Of a stretch of DNA of 64,000 nt, positions 1,000 through 47,384 are shown piece after piece. Each line of letters starts with the position of its first letter. Position 1 is the first letter of the stretch. The notes under the pieces were generated by a model, which was given only the letters and a program-made list of their open reading frames with translations, searched no databases and was not told the DNA's origin. Source of the DNA: Lama glama (taxonomy: Eukaryota); NCBI GenBank assembly GCA_028534125.1, contig CM052816.1:80354001-80418000 (forward strand), written 5' to 3'. Both the position numbers and the translations under genes were made by a program.

Positions 1000-1870
1000 G
1001 CGGGGTCTCCTCTGCCCCATCTCTGCGCCCAACATTTTCCGCCAGTGTGAGGGGCTGGCCTGGGGGCCTCTCACTCGCAGTCCCGCCCAGGGTGACTCTC
1101 CCTAGGCTCCCCTATTTGGCCGGCTCGGCCGGGCTCTGGGCGGGGCCGGCGGAGCGCGGGGGTGGGAGTCCCGGAGGAAGATGCGCGGAGCTGGGGGCGA
1201 GGCCCCGCGCACAAGGCGGAGGGGTGGGGATCTGCGGTGGGCTGCGCCCGCCCGCTCTGACCCTTTCCGCACCCCGCGGAAAGCAGACGCTGTCAGCTGA
1301 ATCACTCCCCTTTCAGGAGGAGGGAGGGAACAGAAAGGTAACTAGCCCCTTTATGCTTAAAAAAGCAAAGGGAGATCGTGGGCAGCCCTGCAGCCTCTCC
1401 TTCCCCACGCCTGGACCATGCACCCCTGCATCTTCCTGCTCGGCCACAGGCGAGGACTTGATTTCTTGAGCTGAGAGCTAAAACTTGTTGACTTTTCTTC
1501 TCCCCAACAACTGAATCATGCCATGTGCCCAGAGGAGCTGGCTTGCAGACCTCTCCGTTGTGGCTCAGCTCCTGAACTTTGGGGCCCTTTGCTATGGGAG
1601 ACAACCCCAGCCGGGCCCGGTGCACTTCCCGGACAGGAGGCAAGGTTAGTGACTTTTTAAAAATTTCCTTGGAAAACCGCAGTGGTAAGGCTTCGTGAAA
1701 AGTTGGTTGCTCCCTTTTCCCTTCCCCCACTCTACTGAACTCCGCAAAGCCGTTTGGCCGAATTGCCGGTTGCGAGGAAATCTGGTCCGGGAGCTCAGTA
1801 ACGCGGGGCTTGTCAGACTTCAGTGTTTAAGGTGCGATTCCTTACTTCTTACTGAAAGGCGAGGATCCCA
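1000..1870 (+). promoter_or_regulatory. ADAMTS12: CpG-island promoter and 5' UTR region of ADAMTS12
   Basis: The densest CpG and GC-rich stretch in the window. It has a GC box GGGCGGGG at 1138-1145 and surrounds the exon 1 ATG. An AP-1 site TGACTCA lies upstream at 714-720. The exact TSS cannot be determined from sequence. Confidence 0.85.
1518..1644 (+). CDS. ADAMTS12: ADAMTS12 coding exon 1 (signal peptide and start of prodomain)
   Basis: ATG at 1518 translates [42 protein letters not shown] plus one G, matching the mammalian ADAMTS12 N-terminus. It is 127 nt with a phase-1 donor AG|GTTAGT at 1645. Not in the ORF track because it is too short. Confidence 0.97.
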
Positions 1871-2949: not shown

Positions 2950-3027
2950 GAGCCATCAGAAGCAGGTCCCTTTGCTTTCCTTGGAAGCGAGCCATCAGAA
3001 GCAGGTCCCTTTGCTTTCCTTGGAAGC
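2950..3027. repeat. Perfect 2 x 39 bp tandem duplication
   Basis: gagccatcagaagcaggtccctttgctttccttggaagc at 2950-2988 and 2989-3027. Confidence 0.95.
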
Positions 3028-3488: not shown

Positions 3489-4277
3489 TTAATTAAAGAC
3501 TTCAGTGTAAGAGCTGAAGCCATAAAACTCCGAGAAGAGAACATAGAACACTCTTTGACATAAATCATGTAAATATATTTTTTTGAATCTGTCTCCTCAG
3601 GCAAAAGAAACAAAAGTAAAGATAAACACATGGGACCTGATTAAACTCAAAAGTGTTTGCACAGCAAAAGAAACCATCAAAAAAATGTTGGTTTTATATG
3701 GGAGAAAATATTTGCAAAAGATATGACTGATAAGGAGTTAATGTCCAAAATATATATAAACAGCTCATATGACTCAATATTAAAAAAAACAACAAAATGA
3801 TTAAAAAATGAGCAGAAGTCCTGAATAGACATTTTTCCAAAGAAGATACATAGATGGCCAACAGGCACATGAAAAAATGCTCAGCATCACTCATCAGGGA
3901 AATTGCTAATCAAACCCACGATGAGATATCACCTCACATCTGTCAGAATGGCTATTATCAAAAAGTCAACAAATAATAAATGTTGGTGAGGGTGTGGGGA
4001 AAAGGGAACCCTTGTGCACTACTGGTTTGAATGTCAGTTGGTGCAGCCACTATGGAAAACAGTATGGACGTTCCTCAAAAAACTAAAATAGAATTACCGT
4101 ATGATCCAGGAATTCCACTCCTGGGAATATAGCCAAAGAAAACGAAAATGCTAATTTGAAAAGATACATGCACCCCAAGGTTCATAGCAGCACTATTTAC
4201 AACAGTCAAGACATGGAAGAAACCTGAGTGTTCATCAATAGGTGAATGAATAAAGAAGATGTGGTACATATATACAC
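3489..4277 (+). mobile_element. LINE-1 fragment (ORF2 C-terminal region), degraded
   Basis: L1 ORF2 3' motifs: 'gacatttttccaaagaagatacatagatggccaacaggcacatgaaaaaatgctcagcatcact', 'gatatcacctcacatctgtcagaatggct', 'ttcatagcagcactatttac'. It has frameshifts and no poly-A tail. Confidence 0.92.
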
Positions 4278-5353
4278 AGCTTTGATATTGTATTTGTTGT
4301 AGTTAACCATAAGCAGTCGCTGCCTGCGGGTTAGATATCACAGGGTTGGTGAGCTAATCCGATCAATCTCCTGTAGTGTATTTAACAACTTTTGAGTCAC
4401 CGTTTTGAAGTGATACGATTCTCCGCAACATTTTGGTGTATGTAGTTTTCTATAATAAAAATACAGTTAAATGGTTACAACAACACATGAAGGATAATTA
4501 TGAATATAAACTTCCTACTGTCACAGGAATTTCATTGCCCTTTGTAGTAACAAGTCTTAGAAGAAATTCAGTTGTTCTCTAAGATAGATGAGATACGAAA
4601 AATAGAGATTTAACCCAGACTTTACAAAGTCTAGAAGGTACATATTCGCTCACCTCTCTCCTTTCTTTCTAAGCAGAGGGTAAAAGATGACTTGGTGATT
4701 TGTGTTTTCAAAAGCAGTTGTCAAAACAGGCTTCCCTCAGTTTCTCATGGAGTGTCACCTAAACTTATGGCCAACGTTTCAAATCTAGTTTTAAACAAGG
4801 CAGATGAAAGTATTTGTGGCTTATGTTTTACATCCGGTGATCCTAGTGCAAATTGTGCTGTGATGAAGGGGTGTCTCAGCCCCACCCACAGCCTTGTAAA
4901 CACCCAACCTTGATGCCTGCTCCTCAGTGGTAGACCTTTGAGAAGAGTGAAGGCAGCGGTTAAAAGAGGGGGACTCTGGGATCAGATTGCCCCAGCATGA
5001 ACCCTCACCCCTCTTTATTGTCTTACAGAGGTGGGAATGAAGGCTAAGATGAGGGACGTGTATGTAACATCCCAGATAATTGTGAGGATTAGGCAAGACC
5101 AAGTTGGTATACTCTTAATGCCATGTTTGACCATAGAAATGGTGAAAATTAGGAGTTACTATTTCCTGACATCTTATTTCTCCATCCCTGTCATAGCCCC
5201 TCTGAGCCCTGCTTTCTATTGGCCGGTATGGTAGCTAGTTCATCTTTCAAACTCAACATCTACTGAGAGGAAGCCAAGATGAGTGTGGGCTTCTCCCCAT
5301 CTCTGCTTGGAGGTTGCATACATTTAAGGCCAGAGGGGTTCCTAGTAGCCTAG

Positions 5354-7282: not shown

Positions 7283-8238
7283 TCTCTCTCTCTCATTGAG
7301 GTATAATTGACCTACAGCACTATGTTAGTTCCTGGTGCACAACATAATGATTCAATATTTCTATATATTTCAAAGTGATCATCACAGTGCATCTAGTTAC
7401 CATTTGTCACCATACAAAGATATTACGAAAGTATTGACTGTATTCCCCATGCTATACATTTCATCCCTGTGACTCATTTGTTTGGTAACTGGAAGTTTGC
7501 ACCTCTTAGTCTCCCTCACCTATTTCACTCATCCCCCAACCCACTCCCCTCTGGCAACCACCTGTTCTCTGTATCTATGTATCTGTTGTTTTGTTATCTT
7601 TTTTAGATTCCACATGTAAGTGAGATCACATGGTATTTATCTTACTCTATCTGACTAATTTCACTAAGCATAATACCTTCTAGGCCTATCCATGTTGTTG
7701 CAAATGGTAAGATATCATTCTTTTTTAATGGCTGAGAATATTCCATTGTGTACCTATGCCACATCTTCTTTATCCATTCATCTGTTGTTAGACACTTAGG
7801 TTGCTTCCACATCTTGGCTGTTGTAAAAAATGCTGCAGTGAACACAGGGGTGCATATATCTTTTTGAATTAGTGCTTTTGTTTTCTTTGGAAAAATACTC
7901 AGGAGTAAAGAATTCCTCGTAGTTGTTTTTAGTTTTTTGAGGCCCCTCCATTAAGTTTTCCATGGAGTCTGCACTAATTTACATTTCCACCAACAGTGAA
8001 GGAGGGTTCCCTTTCCTTCACATTCTTGCCAACACTTATGTGTTGTCTTTTTGATAATAGCCATTCTGACAGGTGTGAGGTGATAGCTCATTGTGGTTTT
8101 GATTTGCATTTCCCTGATGATCAGTGGTGCTGAGCATCTTTTCATGTGGCTGCTGGCCATCTGTATGTCTTCTTTGGAAAAATTTCTATTCAGGTCCTCT
8201 GCCCATTTTTCAATCGGGTTGTTTGTTTTTTTGTGTTG
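7283..8238 (-). mobile_element. 5'-truncated LINE-1 with perfect 15-bp TSD
   Basis: ORF2 C-terminal remnants ([15 protein letters not shown]...[11 protein letters not shown]) plus 3' UTR. TSD tctgtcccatatttc at 7268-7282 and 8239-8253. Confidence 0.93.
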
Positions 8239-11650: not shown

Positions 11651-12012
11651 AGCATTTTATCAAGGCCCTGCCGGAATACCATGTGGTGGCCCCTGTCCGA
11701 GTAGATGCGAGTGGGCATTTTCTGTCATATGGATTGTACCATCCGGTCTCCAGCAGCAGGAGGAAGAGAGATTTGGATGATCCTGAGGACCGAGTGTATT
11801 ACAGAATTTTACACGAGGAGAAGGACCTGCTTTTTAACTTGACAGTCAATCAGGGATTATGTTCCAAAAACTACATTGTGGAGAGGAGATATGGGAACCT
11901 CTCCCATGTTAAGATGGAGGCTTCCTCCGGTCCTCCCTGCCATCTCAGGGGCACAGTTCTGCAGCAGGGCACCAGAGTTGGGACTGCAGCCCTCAGTGCC
12001 TGCCACGGACTG
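11651..12012 (+). CDS. ADAMTS12: ADAMTS12 coding exon 2 (prodomain, Pep_M12B_propep-type)
   Basis: Encodes (E)[26 protein letters not shown]...SSRRKRDL...[11 protein letters not shown]. It is 362 nt, so 127+362=489 nt gives 163 codons, with donor CTG|GTGAGT at 12013. Furin motif RRKR at 11758-11769; sequons NLT (N105) and NLS (N125). Confidence 0.98.
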
Positions 12013-15063: not shown

Positions 15064-17127
15064 TTTTAAAAACATTTTTTATTGATTTATAATCATTTTA
15101 CAATGTGTCAAATTCCAGTGTAGAGCACAATTTTTCAGTTATACATGAACATATATATATTCATTGTCATTTTTTTTCTCTGTGAGCTACCATAAGATCT
15201 TGAATATATTGTAAATATTTCCCTCTGCTATACAGTATAATCTTGTTTATCTGTTCTACATTTTGAAATCCCAGTGTATCCCTTCCCATCCCCTGCCCTC
15301 TTGGCAACCACAAGTTTGTATTCTATGTCTATGAGTCTGTTTCTGTTTTGTATTTATGTTTTGTTTGTTTGTTTGTTTGTTTGTTTTAGATTCCACATAT
15401 GAGTGATCTCATATGGTATTTTTCTTTCTCTTTCTGGCTTACTTAGAATGACATTCTCCAGGAACATCCATGTTGCTGCAAATGGCGTTGTGTTGTTGGT
15501 TTTTATGGCTGAATAGTATTCCATTGTACAAATATACCACATCTTTATTCAGTCATCTGTTGATGGACATTTAGACTGTTTCCATGTTTTAGCTATTGTA
15601 AATAATGCTGCTATGAATGTTGGGGTGCATGTGTCATTTTGAAGTAGGGTTCCTTCTGGATATATGCCCAGGAGTGGGATTCCTGGGTCATACGGTAAGT
15701 CTATTCCTAGTCTTTTGAGGAATCTCCATACTGTTTTCCACAGTGGCTGCACCAAACTGCATTCCCACCAGCAGTGAAGGAGGGTTCCCTTTTCTCCACA
15801 GCCTCTCCAGCATTTGTCATTTGTGGGTTTTTGAATGGTGGCCATTCTGACTGGTGTGAGGTGATACCTCATTGTAGTTTTGATTTGCATTTCTCTGATA
15901 ATTAGTGATATTGAACATTTTTTCATATGCCTATTGATCATTTGTATGTCTTCCTTGGAGAATTGCTTGTTTAGGTCTTCTGCCCATTTTTGGATTGGGT
16001 TGTTTGTTTTTTCTTATTAAGTCATATGAGCTGCTTATATATTCTGGAGATCAAGCGTTTGTCGGTTTCATTTGCAAAAATTTTNNNNNNNNNNNNNNNN
16101 NNNNNNNNNNNNNNNNNNNNNNNNNNNNNNNNNNNNNNNNNNNNNNNNNNNNNNNNNNNNNNNNNNNNNNNNNNNNNNNNNNNNNNNNNNNNNNNNNNNN
16201 NNNNNNNNNNNNNNNNNNNNNNNNNNNNNNNNNNNNNNNNNNNNNNNNNNNNNNNNNNNNNNNNNNNNNNNNNNNNNNNNNNNNNNNNNNNNNNNNNNNN
16301 NNNNNNNNNNNNNNNNNNNNNNNNNNNNNNNNNNNNNNNNNNNNNNNNNNNNNNNNNNNNNNNNNNNNNNNNNNNNNNNNNNNNNNNNNNNNNNNNNNNN
16401 NNNNNNNNNNNNNNNNNNNNNNNNNNNNNNNNNNNNNNNNNNNNNNNNNNNNNNNNNNNNNNNNNNNNNNNNNNNNNNNNNNNNNNNNNNNNNNNNNNNN
16501 NNNNNNNNNNNNNNNNNNNNNNNNNNNNNNNNNNNNNNNNNNNNNNNNNNNNNNNNNNNNNNNNNNNNNNNNNNNNNNNNNNNNTCTGTAGGTTGTCTTT
16601 TTGTTTTACTTACGGTTTCCTTTGCTGTGCAGAAGCTTGTAAATTTCATTAGGTCCCATTTGTTTATTCTTGCTTTTATTTCTATTGCTTGAGTAGACTG
16701 TTCTAGGATAACATTTTTGAGTTGTATGTGAGATAATGTTTTGCCTATATTTTTTCTAGGAGGTTTATTGTATCTTGTCTTGTATTTAAGTCTTTGATCC
16801 ATTTTGAGTTGATTTTTGTGTATGGTGTTAAGGAGTGTTCTAGCTTCACTGATTTACATGCTGCTGTCCAGTTTTCCCAACACCATTTGCTGAAGAGACT
16901 GTCTTTTTTCCATTGTATATTCTTGCCTCCTTTGTCGAAGACTAGTTGACCAAAAGTTTGTGGGTTCGTTTCTGGACTCTCTATTCTGTTCCATTGGTCT
17001 ATATGGCTGTTTTTGTACCAATACCATGCTGTCTTGATTACTGTAGCTGTATAGTATTGTCCGAAGTCTGGGAGAGTTATTCCTCCAGCCTCTTTCTTTT
17101 TCTTCAGTAATGCTTTGGCAATTCTAG

Positions 17128-30185: not shown

Positions 30186-32847
30186 AGTGTGACTGAAATG
30201 TCTAACGAGCATGCAGCAAAATTCTGACCTGAAACATGGTTAGTCTACAACCCTCCCCCCATGTGAATTAGCCAATAAAGGACCCTTGAGGTTTGAGATT
30301 AAAAATCTCTGCTAATCAGTAGCTCACATGTTCTGTGTTAGCAGGCTCCACTCTGACTTACTCTATCCTCACCAGCACCCTGGGAAGTAGGTGTTACCCC
30401 ACCTCCCATTTATAGGCAAGGAAACGGAGGCGGAAATAAGTTGAATGACTTTCTAAAGGGACTCTCACCCTTTGGGAGGAGGTTGAAGAGGCTGACCTCC
30501 TGTTCCTGTGGTCTTCATCTCAACACTGTTCTGCTTTTTAGTTTTTTTTAAACCAGAGAAGGGTCAGGTTTGAAAAGCCCTGTTTTAGGAGCTTCGCTTT
30601 AGAAATGAAGGAACTGCAATCAAGAGAGGCCGGACTCAGCGTTGAGGCAGCACCCCAGGTGAACGTCAGAGCCGGGGCTTGCTTTTCAGTCAGAAGGAGA
30701 GGCAGTTACCGTCAGTGTGCCCTCCTTTCCAAGTGTTTTAGTCAGTCCTCTAGCGTAGGGACGCGTCTTCTCTTAGGAAATGACTTCCTGTTCGCTCCTT
30801 TTTCCTCCCCCACACACTTGGGTCCCTTCATCCCCTCCCCCATCCAACCTTCCCCTGCTGCTTGCTTTCTCCCTCTCCCCTCTCCCAGCTACTTCTGCTC
30901 CTCTCATACCTCTGTTCTCCACAATTCTCTTTGCCTGCATTCTGCTTTCCTTTCTTCTCTCACCTTCTCCTCTAATCCTGTCAGTTTCTACTGAAATGCA
31001 TTTTCTTTTTTGTCCTTTTACTCCATTGAGTCCGGCTGATGGGGTATAAGAAACTATGTAACTGACACGGTTCTTGTGATTGACCATCTTTAGTCCTTTA
31101 GACTCTGGAAAGATGCCCCCATTGCTTCATATTTTCTGAATATGTGTAGTCTTGGCTCATCATGGAAGTCTAGACACCCGTGTGAGTCCACATGAGGCCT
31201 TGGGGGATTTCTGTGCAAGCATTTCTGTGGTGATGCTGCAGAGAGTAATTAAAATGCCATGTGATTCCTTATGACAGTTCTTACTTTTAAAAAATGAGAG
31301 AGATGTTAAGCTGAACCACACATCCTGATCTAATTTAATTGTGACATTTCAGTGTTCTCAGTAAATGATAGTTTTTGTATCATACTCTCTATTGTGTACA
31401 ACTTTTTAAATTTCTTTAAGGTTTCTGAGAGTCAGGTCTTGCTCGGTAGGAAATGTGTTTCTCTGGTAAAAAGTTTTAAGTGGGGTGTCTTTCAATAATG
31501 AATTCTCAGCAGTGGTCCGATTGTAGGAAGAGTGTGCTGACAATGCAGTGATTGAATGCAGTTCGTCGCTGTCATTGCTCTGTCTCCTTTATCAAATTCC
31601 CATATTCACAAACTGATCATACCCTGCAAGGAGCACCAAGCAGGAAGGAGCCACTGCAGGTCCTGGGAAGATAATGGGAAGTGCTCATCCCGGAGCTTAG
31701 GAATTCCGTTCAGCTGGAAACAGACAGTCCCTGCCCTGCAGGGTCAGATTCCTGCAAGAAATGGATGTTTTTCAAGAATTTCTGGTAGGCCCAAGTGGTC
31801 AGTTGTCAAAGGTAAATTTTTTTTTGGTGGGTGCAGCGAGCAGAGCTCTTATGATGACTTGCTTCTAATACATATTTGGCCTAATGCAAGGGAACTCTGA
31901 TCTCCCCTCCCTTGTCCATCACCGCATCTAGTCCATCCTTGTCCCTGTTGATTCTGGCTCTAAAATGTAGTTCAAGTCCTTCTCTTCTCCTCATGTCCAC
32001 TCTCGCTCTAGTCCGCCCCCACCCCCAACCCCACCTGGTCTCAGTACCTCTCTCTGATTCATTCTGCACAGAGCAGCTAGGTTGCTGGGTCCTGCCTTGT
32101 GCACTTCAGCCCCTCTGGTTCTTGGGCTGGGATTCCGGGTGTTGCAGAGGCTGAGCATGACCTCTCTCTGTGGGCTCTGGCCTGTTCATTCCGCATGCTG
32201 CTCCTCAGGGCTCCAGCACCCTGCCTGCCTTCGATGTTTCAGGATGCCTCAAGCGCCTTCCCACCCCAGACCTGTGCGCAGGCTGCTGTCTTTGGCCAGA
32301 ACGTTCTTTACTTGCATCGTGTTCCTTCTGGCCCTTCAGTCCTTCACCTACTTACCTCCTTCTCTGATAGTCAGCCGAGCACTGCTTCAGCTTATTGTTT
32401 GCCACTCTTTCCACGTTGCTTTATTTCCCAGATTACATTCTGTGCTTCTGTCTTGCCTTAAATCCATCATCTGCATCTCCCCCACTACTAGAATGGAAGT
32501 TCGCCCAAGACCAGAGGATTCCTTGTCTTGTTCACTCATGTTCTCCGTTATATCCTTAATATCTAGCGAATGTTAAAGATCTGTTGAATGGATGAATTTG
32601 TTTCTAGTCTCATGGGTTGTCTGGCTTCTATGCTCTCCTCCCAGAAGTTAAAAGTGCCACCCTACTTGGGTTTTCTCATTTTAAAAGAGGATGTTTGCAG
32701 AAGGCTGGCACCAATGCAGGGAGTAAATCGCCCATTGGAGACTGTCAGGGTTTATGGGAGGGCCGTTTTCCGGGCGTGGAGAGGCTGCCTGACTGTTTTT
32801 AAGCCGTTTCAAATTGGTACCACCTGCTCCTCCAGGCTGAGGAGCAG

Positions 32848-33973
32848 ATGCCTCCTTAAAAATACACATTTAGGTCACAAGTAAAAGGCGGAGGCCTTGC
32901 ACAGGAAGACCAGATTATCTCCAACCTACCTACTGTCCTTGGGACAGACAAGTCCTCTTGGGGCTGGTGAACACCCTTCTCCCTCCACCCAGCCAAACCA
33001 CAGCAGGCGTGGTTTCCAGATTCTGCACTCACATTCACTCAGCTTTCTCAGTGAATGGCTTTGTGATAACTTAATGTGCGGAGGATGTAGATTTCAGGAA
33101 GACACAAACAAAACCAGGAATGTTTACATCTGTACTGAGCTTCTGCAGCACGTGTCTGGCATTTGGGTTTCAGCCTAGGCTGCCTAGATAGACGACAGAT
33201 AGATGATAGGTAGATAGGGGAAGGATCTTGTCCTCCTCAGCTTGATCATAAATTCTGTACAGGCAGGGGGACAATCTTATACTGCTCTGTATTCTCCAAT
33301 CCTGAGAATGTTGCACAGATTTAATTTCTCCAAGCCTCAGTTATCTCAGTTCGAAAATGGGGATAACAATACTGATTTTGCAGAATTAATATAAGGACTA
33401 AGGATAAGCCCTTACCTGGCTCTGTAGGTTCTCAGCAAGTGATGCTAACGTGGGGGCAGGCTGCATGGTCTTCTTTCATTATACAACAGATACTCATTGT
33501 GGACCGCACCGGAGACCTGCCTTTGTGGCACTTACGGTCCTGAGTGCATATGAATGGTCGCTCTGGAGATAGACTTGGGTTCTGATCTTGGCTCAGCTGC
33601 TTATTAACTGTGCAGCTTTGGACAAGTAATTTCTCTGAGTCTCATTTTCCTTGTTTGTGAAAAATAGGTTGTCCTGGAAATTAAAAGGATAGTATTTGAA
33701 AAATGTTTTGTACCATTCATGGCTTACCGAGAGTGCTGAAGAGATGGTGATTGATTTATTTTCCACCGATACTCCTGTGGCTGGTGCTGCCACAAGGGTA
33801 GATGCTTAGTCTGCTGCTTCCCTGCTTCCCACTCCACCTCTTGCCCACCACGTGCCACCTGGGACTTGTCTGTCCCAAGAATATTAGGTAGGTTGGAGTT
33901 AATCTGATCTTCCTGTGTAAGTAAGGCCTCCGCCTTTTACTTGTGACCTAAATTTGTATTTTTAAGGAGGCAT
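32848..33973. repeat. Long inverted repeat: arms 32848-32955 and 33862-33973, 906-bp spacer
   Basis: Manual alignment of arm 1 with the reverse complement of arm 2 gives 7 mismatches in 108 positions plus one 4-nt indel. Confidence 0.95.
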
Positions 33974-34097
33974 TTGAAAGCAGATTTCTTGGCCAAGAGC
34001 AGCATGTGCGTATGCACGTTGGAACACAGAGTCCTAATTCCTCCGAGGAACTGGTGACATCTGTCCTAAATTCTTATCTACCCAGGGAACTTGGGTG

Positions 34098-34143: not shown

Positions 34144-35560
34144 TTACGAGGGGTTGCTCTGACCTTGGCAGTTGGGCTTTGACCTTGGCGGTTGGGCTGT
34201 GCCCTTCTGACTCCTCCGGTGGACTTTCGTGGAGAAGGGCAGGCCCCTGGCCCTCTGGAATGTGAGCTCGGAGTTCACAGGCAGCCGTAGGTTCCTGAGT
34301 GAGGAGTAAGTCATTCCCTGACACATACCGGGCAGTCAGCTTATTGTTAAGTAGGTGGCTTTGCAGGAAAGCCTTTCTGTTTCTCTAGAATGCTAAGAAC
34401 TTGTTTTAAAAATAACTTCTGTTGTTTTTTTCTAAATATAAAAGTAACACATGTTGTTGTAGAATATTTGAAATATTCATAAAAATACTAAAGAGAAAAA
34501 TGAAATTCACCCCTCCGGCCACCACTTTTGAGTTCAAGTCCAATGAAGCCAGTTTGCATAGCAACCTATGAACTGAGAAGCCAGGCCTGCTCTGTGGCCT
34601 GAGGCATCCTCGGAACTTTTTGAAACAGAGTTATTTTGACCAGAAATTTTATTTCCTCTCTTCCTCCATCACACCCCTACCTTTGTTATTCATGTGTATC
34701 ATTTCAGCGTAATTCCTGTGGCCCTCAAAAAATTATGAGGATGACTCACACATTTTACTTTTATTTGTAGTGACTTATTCATAGCTATTGGACTCCTGGA
34801 AGATCTCCTATTACAGAGAAACAAGTATGTTCTTGGAATCTGTCATAATAAGAGGAGAGCATTGACTGAAGCTAAAAAAAAGAAGAGAAAGTTCTCCAAA
34901 GGATGGGGAAATAAGCAAGTGGCCTTTTTCTCCTTCACTTTTTGATGCAGGCCAATTTTTCAGTCCTGTCGCTGCCTCCCACGGTTGTCTCTAATGCGTG
35001 TGTGAGAGTCAGACAGAGTGAGCCTTCTATTTATATTGATATAAATGGAGACAAAGTATGGGTTATATTTAAAGAAGGGGAAATTCGGCTCTTTTGTAAA
35101 CAGTCATTCCAAATAAGCAGACATGGTGTCATTGTCCCCAAATGAGACTATACCAAGGGGAACCCCCCCCATCTCTCCAGTGCTGAGTGGAATTTCTCTT
35201 TCTGAGCAAGCACCGTACCAAGTGGGAGAAACTATACACATTGTATGTCTTGTGAAGTGTTTAATGCTTAACACATTTGTCTGCGTATCAGCTGAATGGA
35301 ACTCAGTTGAAACAAGAAGAGGAGATTTCACTGTGTGTTTGTGAAAATTTCAACTCACTGATTATTTTTGGTTTTTACATGGGAACTTGGCATATATGTA
35401 CAGTGCTCTCTCCCATAGGTTCCCCCCCCCCCCACAAAGTGTTCATTTACTTCTTAGGTCACTCTCTTTGCAAAAGAGGTAGGCAGGAACCTCATGCAGT
35501 GCAGATGAGGAACCAGAGGTAGGGAAAGCCTCTGGATTTTGATGAAGCTTTCTTTTAGTC

Positions 35561-35599
35561 ATTTCTAAGTTGTACGAGTCAGTGGTACAACTTAGAAAT
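35561..35599. repeat. Perfect 15-bp-stem inverted repeat with 9-nt loop
   Basis: atttctaagttgtac-gagtcagtg-gtacaacttagaaat. Confidence 0.95.
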
Positions 35600-36464
35600 T
35601 AATAAAAATCCCATTTCCTATTTAATTACTCCAAACACCAGTCTACACACCCTCCCACAGACTTCCAGATTTTGCCTTTAGAAAGTAAATGGCTGATACT
35701 GTTTCCCCTTCTTCCATTTGAAGCTTTCCTGGTAATTTTAGCAGCAGGTTCCGAATGGTGGTCTTGGTGATTGCCTGAACTGTGAATCTGAAACCCATGG
35801 AAATCATGGCATTGTGCAGAAGGGGAGGAACTGTGCTTGGTACCCGCTCCCCTGCAGGGATCCTGTGAATCCCGTCTCCTGAGGAAACACTCCTTGTCTT
35901 ATTATTCCTGCCAGGCCTCTCCCTGGGTGTCAGGAGGACCTGTCTACTTCTAGCTCCTGCAGTGGCCTTGGCCGTGGGGCAGGGCTTTTGTGACTGTCTC
36001 TGCCACCTGGAGTTTTCATTGTGGGGAGCTATTCATTTGCCATGGCAATATATTTTGTTCCCTGTGAAGGCAGGCTGGCTTGTAATTGGGAAAGTAGCCA
36101 GATTAGAAAGAAGATAATGAGGGTACCAGCTTAATTTGCACCTGTCATTCTGTTGCTAATTACGCAGTACCGTAATTGCAGATGGAGGCAAGCTCTTGGC
36201 TTGAAAGTGCAGTCTCCTGTGTGGTTTGGGAAGTAAGAAGTCATCTAGGATGAGGACCAACCAAAAGATGGAAATGGCCCTTTGTCTGAAACCAGTGATG
36301 TGCCTCTTGCACTTGGTTACTTAAGATGCAGTAAGTCAAGCAAAATATTTGCCTTTAGCAGCTAGACTGCGATGTGGGCTAATTAGTGAGGGATCTTTCA
36401 CAGGGGCTCTTAACTTAAGGTCACTGTTTATTTTTGTTGGACAGATAAACTACCATTATTGAAG

Positions 36465-38689: not shown

Positions 38690-40130
38690 GTTAAGAGAAC
38701 CTGCTTACAATGTGGAGAAAAGTCAAACTAGAGAATCTCATGCAAATCTGGACCCTAGGTGGATTAAGGACTGAAGTGTGAAAAAAAATAAGAAGTCAAG
38801 AGTAGAAAATGCTGAATACTATTTTAGTGACTTAGTGGTGGGACATATTTCTTAGTAAAGATTCTAATAAAGCACAAATTATAAGGCAAAACATTGGTGA
38901 ATTGGTTATGTAAAATTGAAGATTTCTGAGTTAGCAGGAAAATATTACATTGGGAGATACCAGAAGGATCTGGTATTCAAAAGATACAAGAACTTTCTAG
39001 AAATCAATTTCTAGAATCAATAGCAAATAAAATCTAGAAAATTTTGGGAAACATAATAAAAAATCGGCAAAATATATAAGCAGGAAATTCACAAAAGGAG
39101 AAATCCAAATGGTTAATACATACATGCAGTAACACTTGAAATCATTGATTCAGAAAAATGCAAATTAAAAGAACTAGATAACACTTTATACCTGGGAGGT
39201 TGAAAAAGATTAGGAAGTTGGTGATGTCAAATCTTGGAAGAGACAGAAAACAGGAACCCTTGCACTGTCAGGAGACATTTGAGAAAGTGATCTGATTGGG
39301 AAGGGTAATAGCTCAGTGGTAAAGTGCATGCTTAGCATGCATGAGGTCCTGGGTTCAATCCCCAGTTCCTCCATTAAAAAAAGAAGTTGTAGAGAGAGTT
39401 ATCTGACAATGCGCAGGTGAATTGTCATACATCCTATGACCTACCCATTTTATTCCTGGGTGTATGCTCTGCAGGAATTCTAAGACAAGATGATGAGGGA
39501 ACAACTATGAAGGATGCTTTTCATAGTGCTGGTTTTGGTACTGGGGAATTGAAGGCCAACTTACAAGGATGCATTAATAAAAATGTAGTGGATACATACT
39601 ATGGAATACATACTTTGTAGCAGTTGGAAGGAACTCTCTAGATGTAACCACAGTAAAATGGATAGATCTCAATGAGATAGATCTGAGTAAAAAAAATTAT
39701 TAATAGTGTGGCATACATGGCACAATACTATTTTTTTTACATCTTAAAGAATTATTTTATTTTAGAACACGTAAAATGCAGAGACCATTCCAAAAATTTT
39801 CCCTCAACTGCTTTACTTTTCCTGTCTTTGAAAATACTCCCAACGTTGTCACCTATTCCTACAATTTTTAAACATCTCCCCACCCATTAGCTATAAAATA
39901 AAGTCCTAAGTCTTTAGTCTGACAGTGAGACCTTACCCAAGCTTTTCTAGACCTACCTTTCTCAGTTTCTTTTTTATTGTATTCCTAGAAGACCACGTGG
40001 CACAATACTATTGATGTAAGTTAAACTACATACACAGAACAAGAATTTATATATATATTAAAGGATCTATACACATTCAGATATACATGTCAATCACAAA
40101 CAGAGCAGTTTGCCTATGAGTGATGGGGAG
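38690..40130 (+). mobile_element. Ancient L1 (L1ME/L1M-type) remnant
   Basis: Degenerate ORF2 3' and 3' UTR motifs ('gcaaaatatataagcaggaaattcacaaaaggagaaatccaaatgg', 'catcctatgacctacccattttattcctggg'). Confidence 0.65.
39296..39391 (+). mobile_element. tRNA-Ala-derived SINE (camelid Vic-1-like), short form
   Basis: A-box tagctcagtgg, B-box ggttcaatccc, A-tail; degenerate 15-bp TSD gagaaagtgatctga (39281-39295) / gagagagttatctga (39392-39406). Confidence 0.85.
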
Positions 40131-47228: not shown

Positions 47229-47384
47229 TAAAAAATGTTTTTGTATTTAAAAATTTTAATTTTTTTAGGGGAAGCAATTAGGTTTATTTTTATTTATTTA
47301 TTTATTTGATGGTACTGGGGATTGAACCCAGAATCTCCTGCATCCTAAGTACACACTCTGCCACTGAGCTATACCTTACCCCCC
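47229..47384 (-). mobile_element. tRNA-Ala-derived SINE (camelid Vic-1-like)
   Basis: Minus strand reads ggggtaaggtatagctcagtggcagag...ctgggttcaatccccagtacc, then (taaa)n, 'cctaattgcttcccct' and an A-rich tail; TSD ata(c/t)tgaaaactctt at 47214-47228 and 47385-47399. Confidence 0.88.

What the first reader, a model, noticed from the sequence alone, without database searches (positions are those of the whole stretch)
32848..33973. ~110-bp, ~93%-identical inverted repeat of non-TE sequence around a 906-bp spacer in ADAMTS12 intron 2
Seen: arm 1 (32848-32955) matches the reverse complement of arm 2 (33862-33973) with 7 mismatches and one 4-nt indel. The arms resemble no repeat I recognise and have no TSD, while the spacer holds very old MIR remnants. 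As + strand RNA, two mismatches become G-U pairs and two become A:C mismatches, the configuration ADAR is known to favour. Inference: it may be (a) a long pre-mRNA duplex that is edited or affects processing of this huge intron, (b) the breakpoints of a recurrently flippable ~0.9 kb inversion with arms homogenised by gene conversion, or (c) the scar of a replication template switch.
Basis: partly seen in the sequence, partly recalled or inferred. Interest (0 to 1): 0.7.

Follow-up and report, generated by a model that had tools for sequence, protein, structure and literature searches.

The report
Inverted duplication in camelid ADAMTS12 intron
A 110-base piece of ordinary intron DNA was once copied backwards about 900 bases away in a camel-family gene, so the RNA can fold back on itself and is probably chemically edited there, but nothing shows that it has a function.

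Summary
The repeat is real: arms 32848-32955 and 33862-33973, 7 substitutions plus a 4-nt indel, 906-nt spacer, in intron 2 of camelid ADAMTS12. It is not a misassembly: 14 runs in 7 studies hold all sampled words. No third copy and no TSD were found. RNA contigs of a relative 3-4% diverged (probably an Old World camel; inferred) carry both arms with the spacer in the same orientation. At least 3 arm-arm mismatches and the indel are shared with that relative. No later change is shown mirrored in the other arm, and the arms are not detectably more conserved than their flanks. So flipping and gene conversion are unsupported. Best reading: a one-off local inverted duplication by template switching, older than that species split and now decaying. 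A perfect 9-bp hairpin abuts arm 1's outer end (P about 0.005, post hoc). A-to-I editing is probable but unproven: A>G changes and contig forks concentrate in the arms in one RNA run, with no matched DNA and 11 of 51 rows hidden. Such duplications and edited intronic duplexes are common known classes. No outgroup or Dfam test was possible.

The parts
32848..32955 (+). Arm 1 (108 nt); could extend 3 nt outward to 32845 with one G/T mismatch
   Evidence: orthologue in single contigs of X17 and X18
33862..33973 (-). Arm 2 (112 nt), reverse complement of arm 1; carries a 4-nt tandem duplication near 33918-33925
   Evidence: orthologue in one X17 contig, broken into 4 short overlapping variants in X15
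32956..33861 (.). 906-nt spacer holding old dispersed-repeat remnants (about 33317-33366, 33574-33612, 33627-33708); same orientation in the relative
   Evidence: tables 7 and 8; MIR/L2 names recalled, not tested
32824..32847 (.). Perfect 9-bp hairpin (6-nt loop) ending exactly at arm 1's outer edge; possible junction scar
   Evidence: 8 such stems in the window; P about 0.005 that one lies within 2 nt of any of the 4 arm ends (post hoc)
32868..32898 (+). Longest exact arm-arm match, 31 nt
1518..1644 (+). ADAMTS12 exon 1, coding part (host gene)
   Evidence: tblastn
11651..12012 (+). ADAMTS12 exon 2 (Pep_M12B_propep); the repeat lies about 20.8 kb into intron 2

Best explanation
A single local inverted duplication of about 110 nt of unique intronic DNA. 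A replication or repair polymerase switched to the opposite strand about 1 kb away, copied 108-112 nt and returned (mechanism inferred). The event predates the split between the window's species and a relative 3-4% diverged (shown) and probably lies in the camelid stem lineage (inferred). Since then the arms have mutated independently at about the flank rate (shown, low power). Because the repeat sits in the ADAMTS12 pre-mRNA, the arms can pair (predicted), and ADAR probably edits the duplex as a bystander (about 65-70% likely; indirect evidence). Whether the spacer was inverted in the same event, and which arm is the copy, needs an outgroup; the junction hairpin weakly favours arm 1 as the copy.
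For: Single-copy: no third copy in the window. In about 2.2 Gb of contigs laid at 80% likeness, foreign pieces hit only the spacer and left flank, none the arms (22 of 26 pieces shown, the other 4 placed outside the arms by my hand arithmetic on table 2). No TSD. Shared across species: the indel and 3 mismatches (32867/33954, 32918/33899, 32933/33884; a 4th, 32937/33880, unresolved). Independent later changes: 33931 C>T in the relative with no change at mirror 32890; 32899 and 32935 differ only in the window lineage. Arm divergence 5/220 shown vs 24-34/842 outside (Fisher p 0.82 and 0.31). Junction hairpin P about 0.005. Precedent: 54% of 229 validated human inversion sites were inverted duplications, nearly all <1 kb inserted within 5 kb and not retrotransposition-linked (PMC4617611 passages). 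Editing: A>G is 3 of 6 shown arm rows vs 1 of 34 non-arm rows (p=0.008), and at least 6 of 11 hidden rows. X15's arm-2 contigs differ by 7/61, 5/48 and 6/79 vs about 2.7% background, and fork at A33883 in a U-A-U context.
Against: No outgroup was seen, so the single-copy ancestral state is assumed. The arms were not tested against Dfam. The outer flanks show marginal extra similarity (18 of 600 nulls reach it; inner 227 of 600), which would fit an older, longer repeat with a converted core. For editing: there is no matched DNA. The places of the 11 hidden rows are unknown. The X15 short contigs have depth 2-5, where the tool warns of errors. A>G vs T>C is p=0.046 in X15 but p=0.27 in X17, and X18 shows just 1 A>G. 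Against a 4.6% background the X15 excess is weak (p 0.025, 0.07, 0.16). The fork-at-A reasoning is my inference from contig ends.
Confidence: 0.66

Rival explanations
1. An old inverted repeat kept alike by gene conversion, with the 0.9-kb spacer flipping recurrently.
For: Marginal outer-flank similarity (18 of 600). A crossover inside the 31-nt exact block would leave all 31-mers intact, so share 1.00 in 14 runs cannot exclude it. X15 record 1 ends at 32933, the mirror of where record 8 starts (33884), which is unexplained.
Against: Same orientation and no joints in X15 (right junction only), X17 (both junctions) and X18 (left only). The indel and 3 mismatches are shared across species. None of the 5 shown post-split changes is shown mirrored; a T>C at 33949 among hidden rows cannot be fully excluded, though X15 record 7 aligns through that base. 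Human NAHR inversions used repeats of 654 bp to 24.2 kb (10.1101/501981 passages).
Confidence: 0.12
2. A selected RNA duplex that affects processing of the long intron 2 (strong form of first reader's a).
For: Stable duplex (-179 kcal/mol); probable editing; 4 of 5 post-split changes leave G-U pairs.
Against: 4 of 5 is p=0.19. No compensatory double change is shown. Arm divergence matches the flanks. The opposite strand pairs equally well (-180.6). The site is 21 kb from the nearest known exon. Intronic inverted duplications are abundant and far less depleted than those in mRNA (PMC7006430 passages).
Confidence: 0.07
3. Two copies of an unrecognised low-copy transposon fragment, or one non-autonomous DNA transposon with 110-nt terminal repeats.
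For: No Dfam or whole-genome search was possible (no genome held).
Against: No TSD. No foreign contig matched the arms while the spacer repeats were hit repeatedly. The spacer holds much older repeats and the arms are 93% alike. Camelid SINEs are nearly all MIRs (PMC8605555 passages).
Confidence: 0.07
4. The duplication story holds, but the A>G signal is genomic polymorphism, species difference or low-depth contig error, not editing.
For: No matched DNA; X18 is clean apart from 32872; depths of 2-5; X17's strand bias is not significant. The libraries may contain DNA (tool warning).
Against: A>G is rare outside the arms (1 of 34). X15 has alternative paths inside arm 2, where X17 assembles one contig. 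Fully converting arm 2 to arm 1 would give only about 4 differences in record 5's span, not 7 (my count).
Confidence: 0.3
5. Arm 2 is an assembly artefact.
For: The window has a 500-N gap elsewhere.
Against: 14 of 24 listed runs, in 7 studies, hold 1.00 of the sampled words; 2 of them are not flagged as possible sources. A different species has arm 2 with both flanks in one contig (X17 record 14).
Confidence: 0.01

Closest known systems
Inverted duplications ('inv-dup') of the 1000 Genomes SV map (PMC4617611; passages read)
   Same: Copy under 1 kb, inverted, within 5 kb of the other copy, no sign of retrotransposition.
   Different: Those are human polymorphisms seen against a reference allele; this one is old, shared by two camelid species, and its pre-duplication allele was not seen.
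Four-point template switch events 3-2-1-4 and 3-1-2-4 (PMC5453318; passages read)
   Same: Creates an inverted repeat, with or without inverting the spacer.
   Different: That work concerns short-range events; here the copy is 108 nt at about 1 kb, nearer the FoSTeS/MMBIR scale.
Recurrent NAHR inversions between inverted repeats (10.1101/501981 passages; PMC3961182 search listing only)
   Same: Arms over 90% identical around a unique segment.
   Different: Arms 6-fold shorter than the shortest there (654 bp); no second orientation and no homogenisation seen.
ADAR-edited intronic duplexes, including non-repetitive ones (PMC7006430, PMC11838218; passages read)
   Same: Long imperfect intron-intron duplex; probable A>G in the arms.
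   Different: Most known cases pair mobile elements; this pairs apparently unique DNA in a lineage whose SINEs are almost all old MIRs (PMC8605555). Editing here is not proven.

Membership tests
Inverted duplication (inv-dup) | Duplicated stretch under 1 kb, inverted, within 5 kb | tested here: met
   108/112 nt, 906 nt apart
Inverted duplication (inv-dup) | Not derived from retrotransposition or a repeat family | tested here: inconclusive
   No TSD, no third copy, no foreign contigs on the arms; Dfam and whole genome unavailable
Inverted duplication (inv-dup) | Ancestral allele has one copy | not testable with these tools
   No outgroup DNA reached; metagenome scan gave 0 hits
Four-point template switch | Ancestral sequence plus one reverse-complement fragment reproduces the derived allele | not testable with these tools
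   Needs an outgroup; the junction hairpin is only suggestive
Recurrent NAHR inversion | Repeats over 90% identical and of several hundred bp or more | tested here: not met
   108 nt, longest exact run 31 nt vs 654 bp minimum
Recurrent NAHR inversion | Both orientations occur | tested here: inconclusive
   One orientation in 3 of 3 informative runs, no joints; contigs drop rare forms and few individuals were seen
Recurrent NAHR inversion | Arms homogenised within species | tested here: not met
   Indel and 3 mismatches shared across species; 33931 change unmirrored
MITE / non-autonomous DNA transposon | Target-site duplication | tested here: not met
   None of 3 nt or more; 2-nt TSDs were not reported by the test
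MITE / non-autonomous DNA transposon | Dispersed copies | tested here: not met
   None in the window or among laid contigs; not a whole-genome test
ADAR-edited intronic duplex | Sense-strand duplex over about 50 bp | tested here: met
   In silico: 99 of 108 bases pair with P>0.9 in a 1.2-kb context
ADAR-edited intronic duplex | A>G excess confined to the arms in RNA | tested here: inconclusive
   3 of 6 vs 1 of 34 shown rows; at least 6 of 11 hidden rows, places unknown
ADAR-edited intronic duplex | Changes absent from DNA of the same individual | not testable with these tools
   No matched DNA among the 24 runs

The most novel reading that the evidence does not exclude
Camelids lack abundant young SINE pairs, so unique-sequence inverted duplications like this one could be a main source of their intronic ADAR substrates. 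This copy would be a heavily edited duplex, kept pairable by selection (G-U-compatible drift) since before the Old/New World camelid split, that affects processing of ADAMTS12 intron 2: a lineage-specific regulatory RNA structure born from one replication slip.
Probability: 0.06. Interest if true: 0.55.

Novelty: new member of a known kind. Interest (0 to 1): 0.22.

Why it matters
Modestly. It is a clean, datable example of a local inverted duplication that became fixed and probably turned into an ADAR substrate without any transposon. That makes it a possible probe for editing in a SINE-poor mammal. As a neutral scar it changes nothing about ADAMTS12 biology. It would matter more only if constraint or an effect on intron processing were shown.

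Tried and rejected
Own-genome copy-number search: no genome is held. Rfam: no family at the locus, only two tRNA-like hits elsewhere. Exact 21-nt arm pattern in metagenome contigs: 0 hits, a low-power test. Protein atlas named the exon-2 peptide only to family level, with an ADAMTS3-labelled top cluster; one search settled ADAMTS12. Run X19 held only a 36-nt repeat piece and was uninformative. X15 has no cover at 32934-33316, which is no finding. Extension of homology beyond the arms: outer marginal, inner none. G-U enrichment was not significant, and the arms were not more conserved than the flanks. A 7-nt direct repeat at the two outer ends (32843, 33979) has P about 0.05 per pair with 6 pairs tested, so I dismissed it. 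An inversion junction in X15 (record 1 ending at the mirror of 33884) was considered and not accepted, because the record aligns to its last base as arm-1 type. The protein difference lists printed empty through a script fault and were redone. Searches for a paper on this element listed none; most subscription journals are not covered. No supplements were read; inversion or editing-site tables there could list an orthologous human site.

Full report
Observation. The inverted repeat is exactly as described: arms 32848-32955 and 33862-33973, 7 substitutions, one 4-nt indel and a 906-nt spacer. It scores 153 bits against at most 39.2 in 100 resampled controls. The longest exact match is 31 nt. 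The host gene is camelid ADAMTS12: two exons match the dromedary protein at 160 of 163 residues and no third exon lies in the window. The window is therefore a camelid that differs from the dromedary record; a South American camelid is my inference.

It is not an artefact, and no sign of a repeat family was found. 14 of 24 listed runs, from 7 studies and 4 coded organisms, hold all sampled words of 32400-34090 (12 of them may be the assembly's source). nhmmer finds no third arm in the window. No TSD of 3 nt or more was found. When 4 runs (about 2.2 Gb of contigs) were laid at 80% likeness, contigs from other loci matched short pieces of the spacer and left flank but not the arms (22 of 26 pieces shown, the other 4 placed outside the arms by hand arithmetic on the depth table). 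Dfam and a whole genome were not available.

Comparison with a relative. Three of the four laid runs (X15, X17, X18) come from a species 2.9-4.0% diverged outside the arms, probably an Old World camel (inferred, not shown). X17 and X18 each have one contig across left flank, arm 1 and spacer. X17 has one across spacer, arm 2 and right flank. The orientation equals the window's and no joint was listed. The tool showed 40 of 51 difference rows; subtracting them from the per-run totals leaves only A>G, C>T and T>C among the hidden ones. That fixes the following. The indel and the mismatches 32867/33954, 32918/33899 and 32933/33884 are shared by both species; 32937/33880 is unresolved. At 32899, 32935 and 33907 the relative's arms pair and the window's do not. 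At 33931 (a CpG) the relative changed and its mirror 32890 did not. At 32872 the relative reads G; a mirrored change at 33949 cannot be fully excluded, but X15 record 7 aligns through that base. With A at 32899 the indel is a plain 4-nt tandem duplication in arm 2, so the window's G is derived. No mirrored change is shown, and arm divergence (5/220 shown, up to 14) does not differ from the flanks (24-34/842; p 0.82 and 0.31). With a clock and no conversion, the repeat is 1.7-2.3 times as old as the species split (range 1.1-4.3). The Old/New World split is put at 11-25 My (PMC4884201 passages), which is compatible with the camelid stem lineage.

Origin. The anatomy matches the commonest inversion-type variant in humans: an inverted copy under 1 kb placed within 5 kb (54% of 229 sites; PMC4617611 passages). 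Template switching is described as making inverted repeats with or without an inverted spacer (PMC5453318 passages), and human-chimp microinversions are flanked by 3-75-nt inverted repeats (PMC8755829 passages). A perfect 9-bp hairpin (32824-32847) ends exactly at arm 1's outer edge. Only 8 such stems exist in the window, so P is about 0.005, noticed post hoc. The shared mismatches are mostly transversions (3 of 4) and the later ones all transitions (5 of 5; p=0.048), which may mean error-prone copying and a younger age; this is weak. Against a one-off event, the outer flanks show marginal extra similarity (18 of 600 nulls). The mechanism is inferred, since no outgroup was reached (0 hits).

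Editing. The sense-strand arms pair in silico (99 of 108 bases at P>0.9; -179 kcal/mol), but the antisense strand pairs equally well, so folding is no evidence of function. Signs of A-to-I editing: A>G is 3 of 6 shown arm rows against 1 of 34 elsewhere (p=0.008), and at least 6 of 11 hidden rows. X15 alone has A>G at 32861, and G at 32899 where X17 and X18 have A. X15's arm 2 breaks into overlapping 48-79-nt contigs with 7.6-11.5% differences that fork at A33883, while X17 assembles it whole. The inferred variant sites (33883, 33886, 33901, and 33919 or 33950) are A with a 5' U, ADAR's preferred neighbour (PMC3113232 passages), but all except the first rest on my reading of contig ends. Against: no matched DNA, depth 2-5, unknown places of hidden rows, no significant strand bias in X17 (p=0.27), a nearly clean X18, and the libraries may contain DNA. 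I put editing at 65-70%.

Comparison and verdict. Intronic inverted duplications number in the hundreds of thousands across species even when nearly perfect, and most ADAR activity is intron-intron (PMC7006430 passages). Edited non-repetitive duplexes are catalogued in human (PMC11838218 passages). NAHR-driven recurrent inversions use far longer repeats (10.1101/501981 passages). Camelid SINEs are under 2% of the genome and nearly all MIRs (PMC8605555 passages), which is the one reason such a duplex might stand out in this lineage. Searches listed no paper on this element; no supplements were read. It is filed as a new member of a known kind: a decaying local inverted duplication, probably edited as a bystander. 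Interest 0.22.

Noticed in passing
window 35553-35607: A second AT-rich hairpin: 23-nt arms, 91% complementary, 9-nt loop; 59.9 bits vs a control maximum of 39.2. Possibly a short template-switch scar or a tiny MITE.
   Followed up: no
window 2950-3027: Perfect 39-nt tandem duplication in intron 1, probably recent.
   Followed up: no
window 39302-39373 (+) and 47307-47378 (-): Two tRNA-like hits, 80% alike and inverted to each other; likely heads of a tRNA-derived SINE (recalled resemblance).
   Followed up: no
window 3783-4278 and 7747-8232: Two repeat fragments (L1-like, recalled resemblance) in opposite orientation 3.5 kb apart, 78% alike over 500 nt: another possible pre-mRNA duplex, in intron 1.
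   Followed up: no
window 32400-34090: Outside the arms, differences to the relative are skewed: 14 G>A vs 1 A>G among 34 shown rows, 7 of the G>A at CpG. Unexplained; it also lowers the background used in the editing test.
   Followed up: partly
window 32933 / 33884, run X15: One contig ends at 32933, the exact mirror of where another starts (33884). Could be chance, an editing fork at A32903, or a chimeric molecule.
   Followed up: partly
window 16085-16584: 500-N assembly gap within repeat (L1-like) sequence.
   Followed up: no
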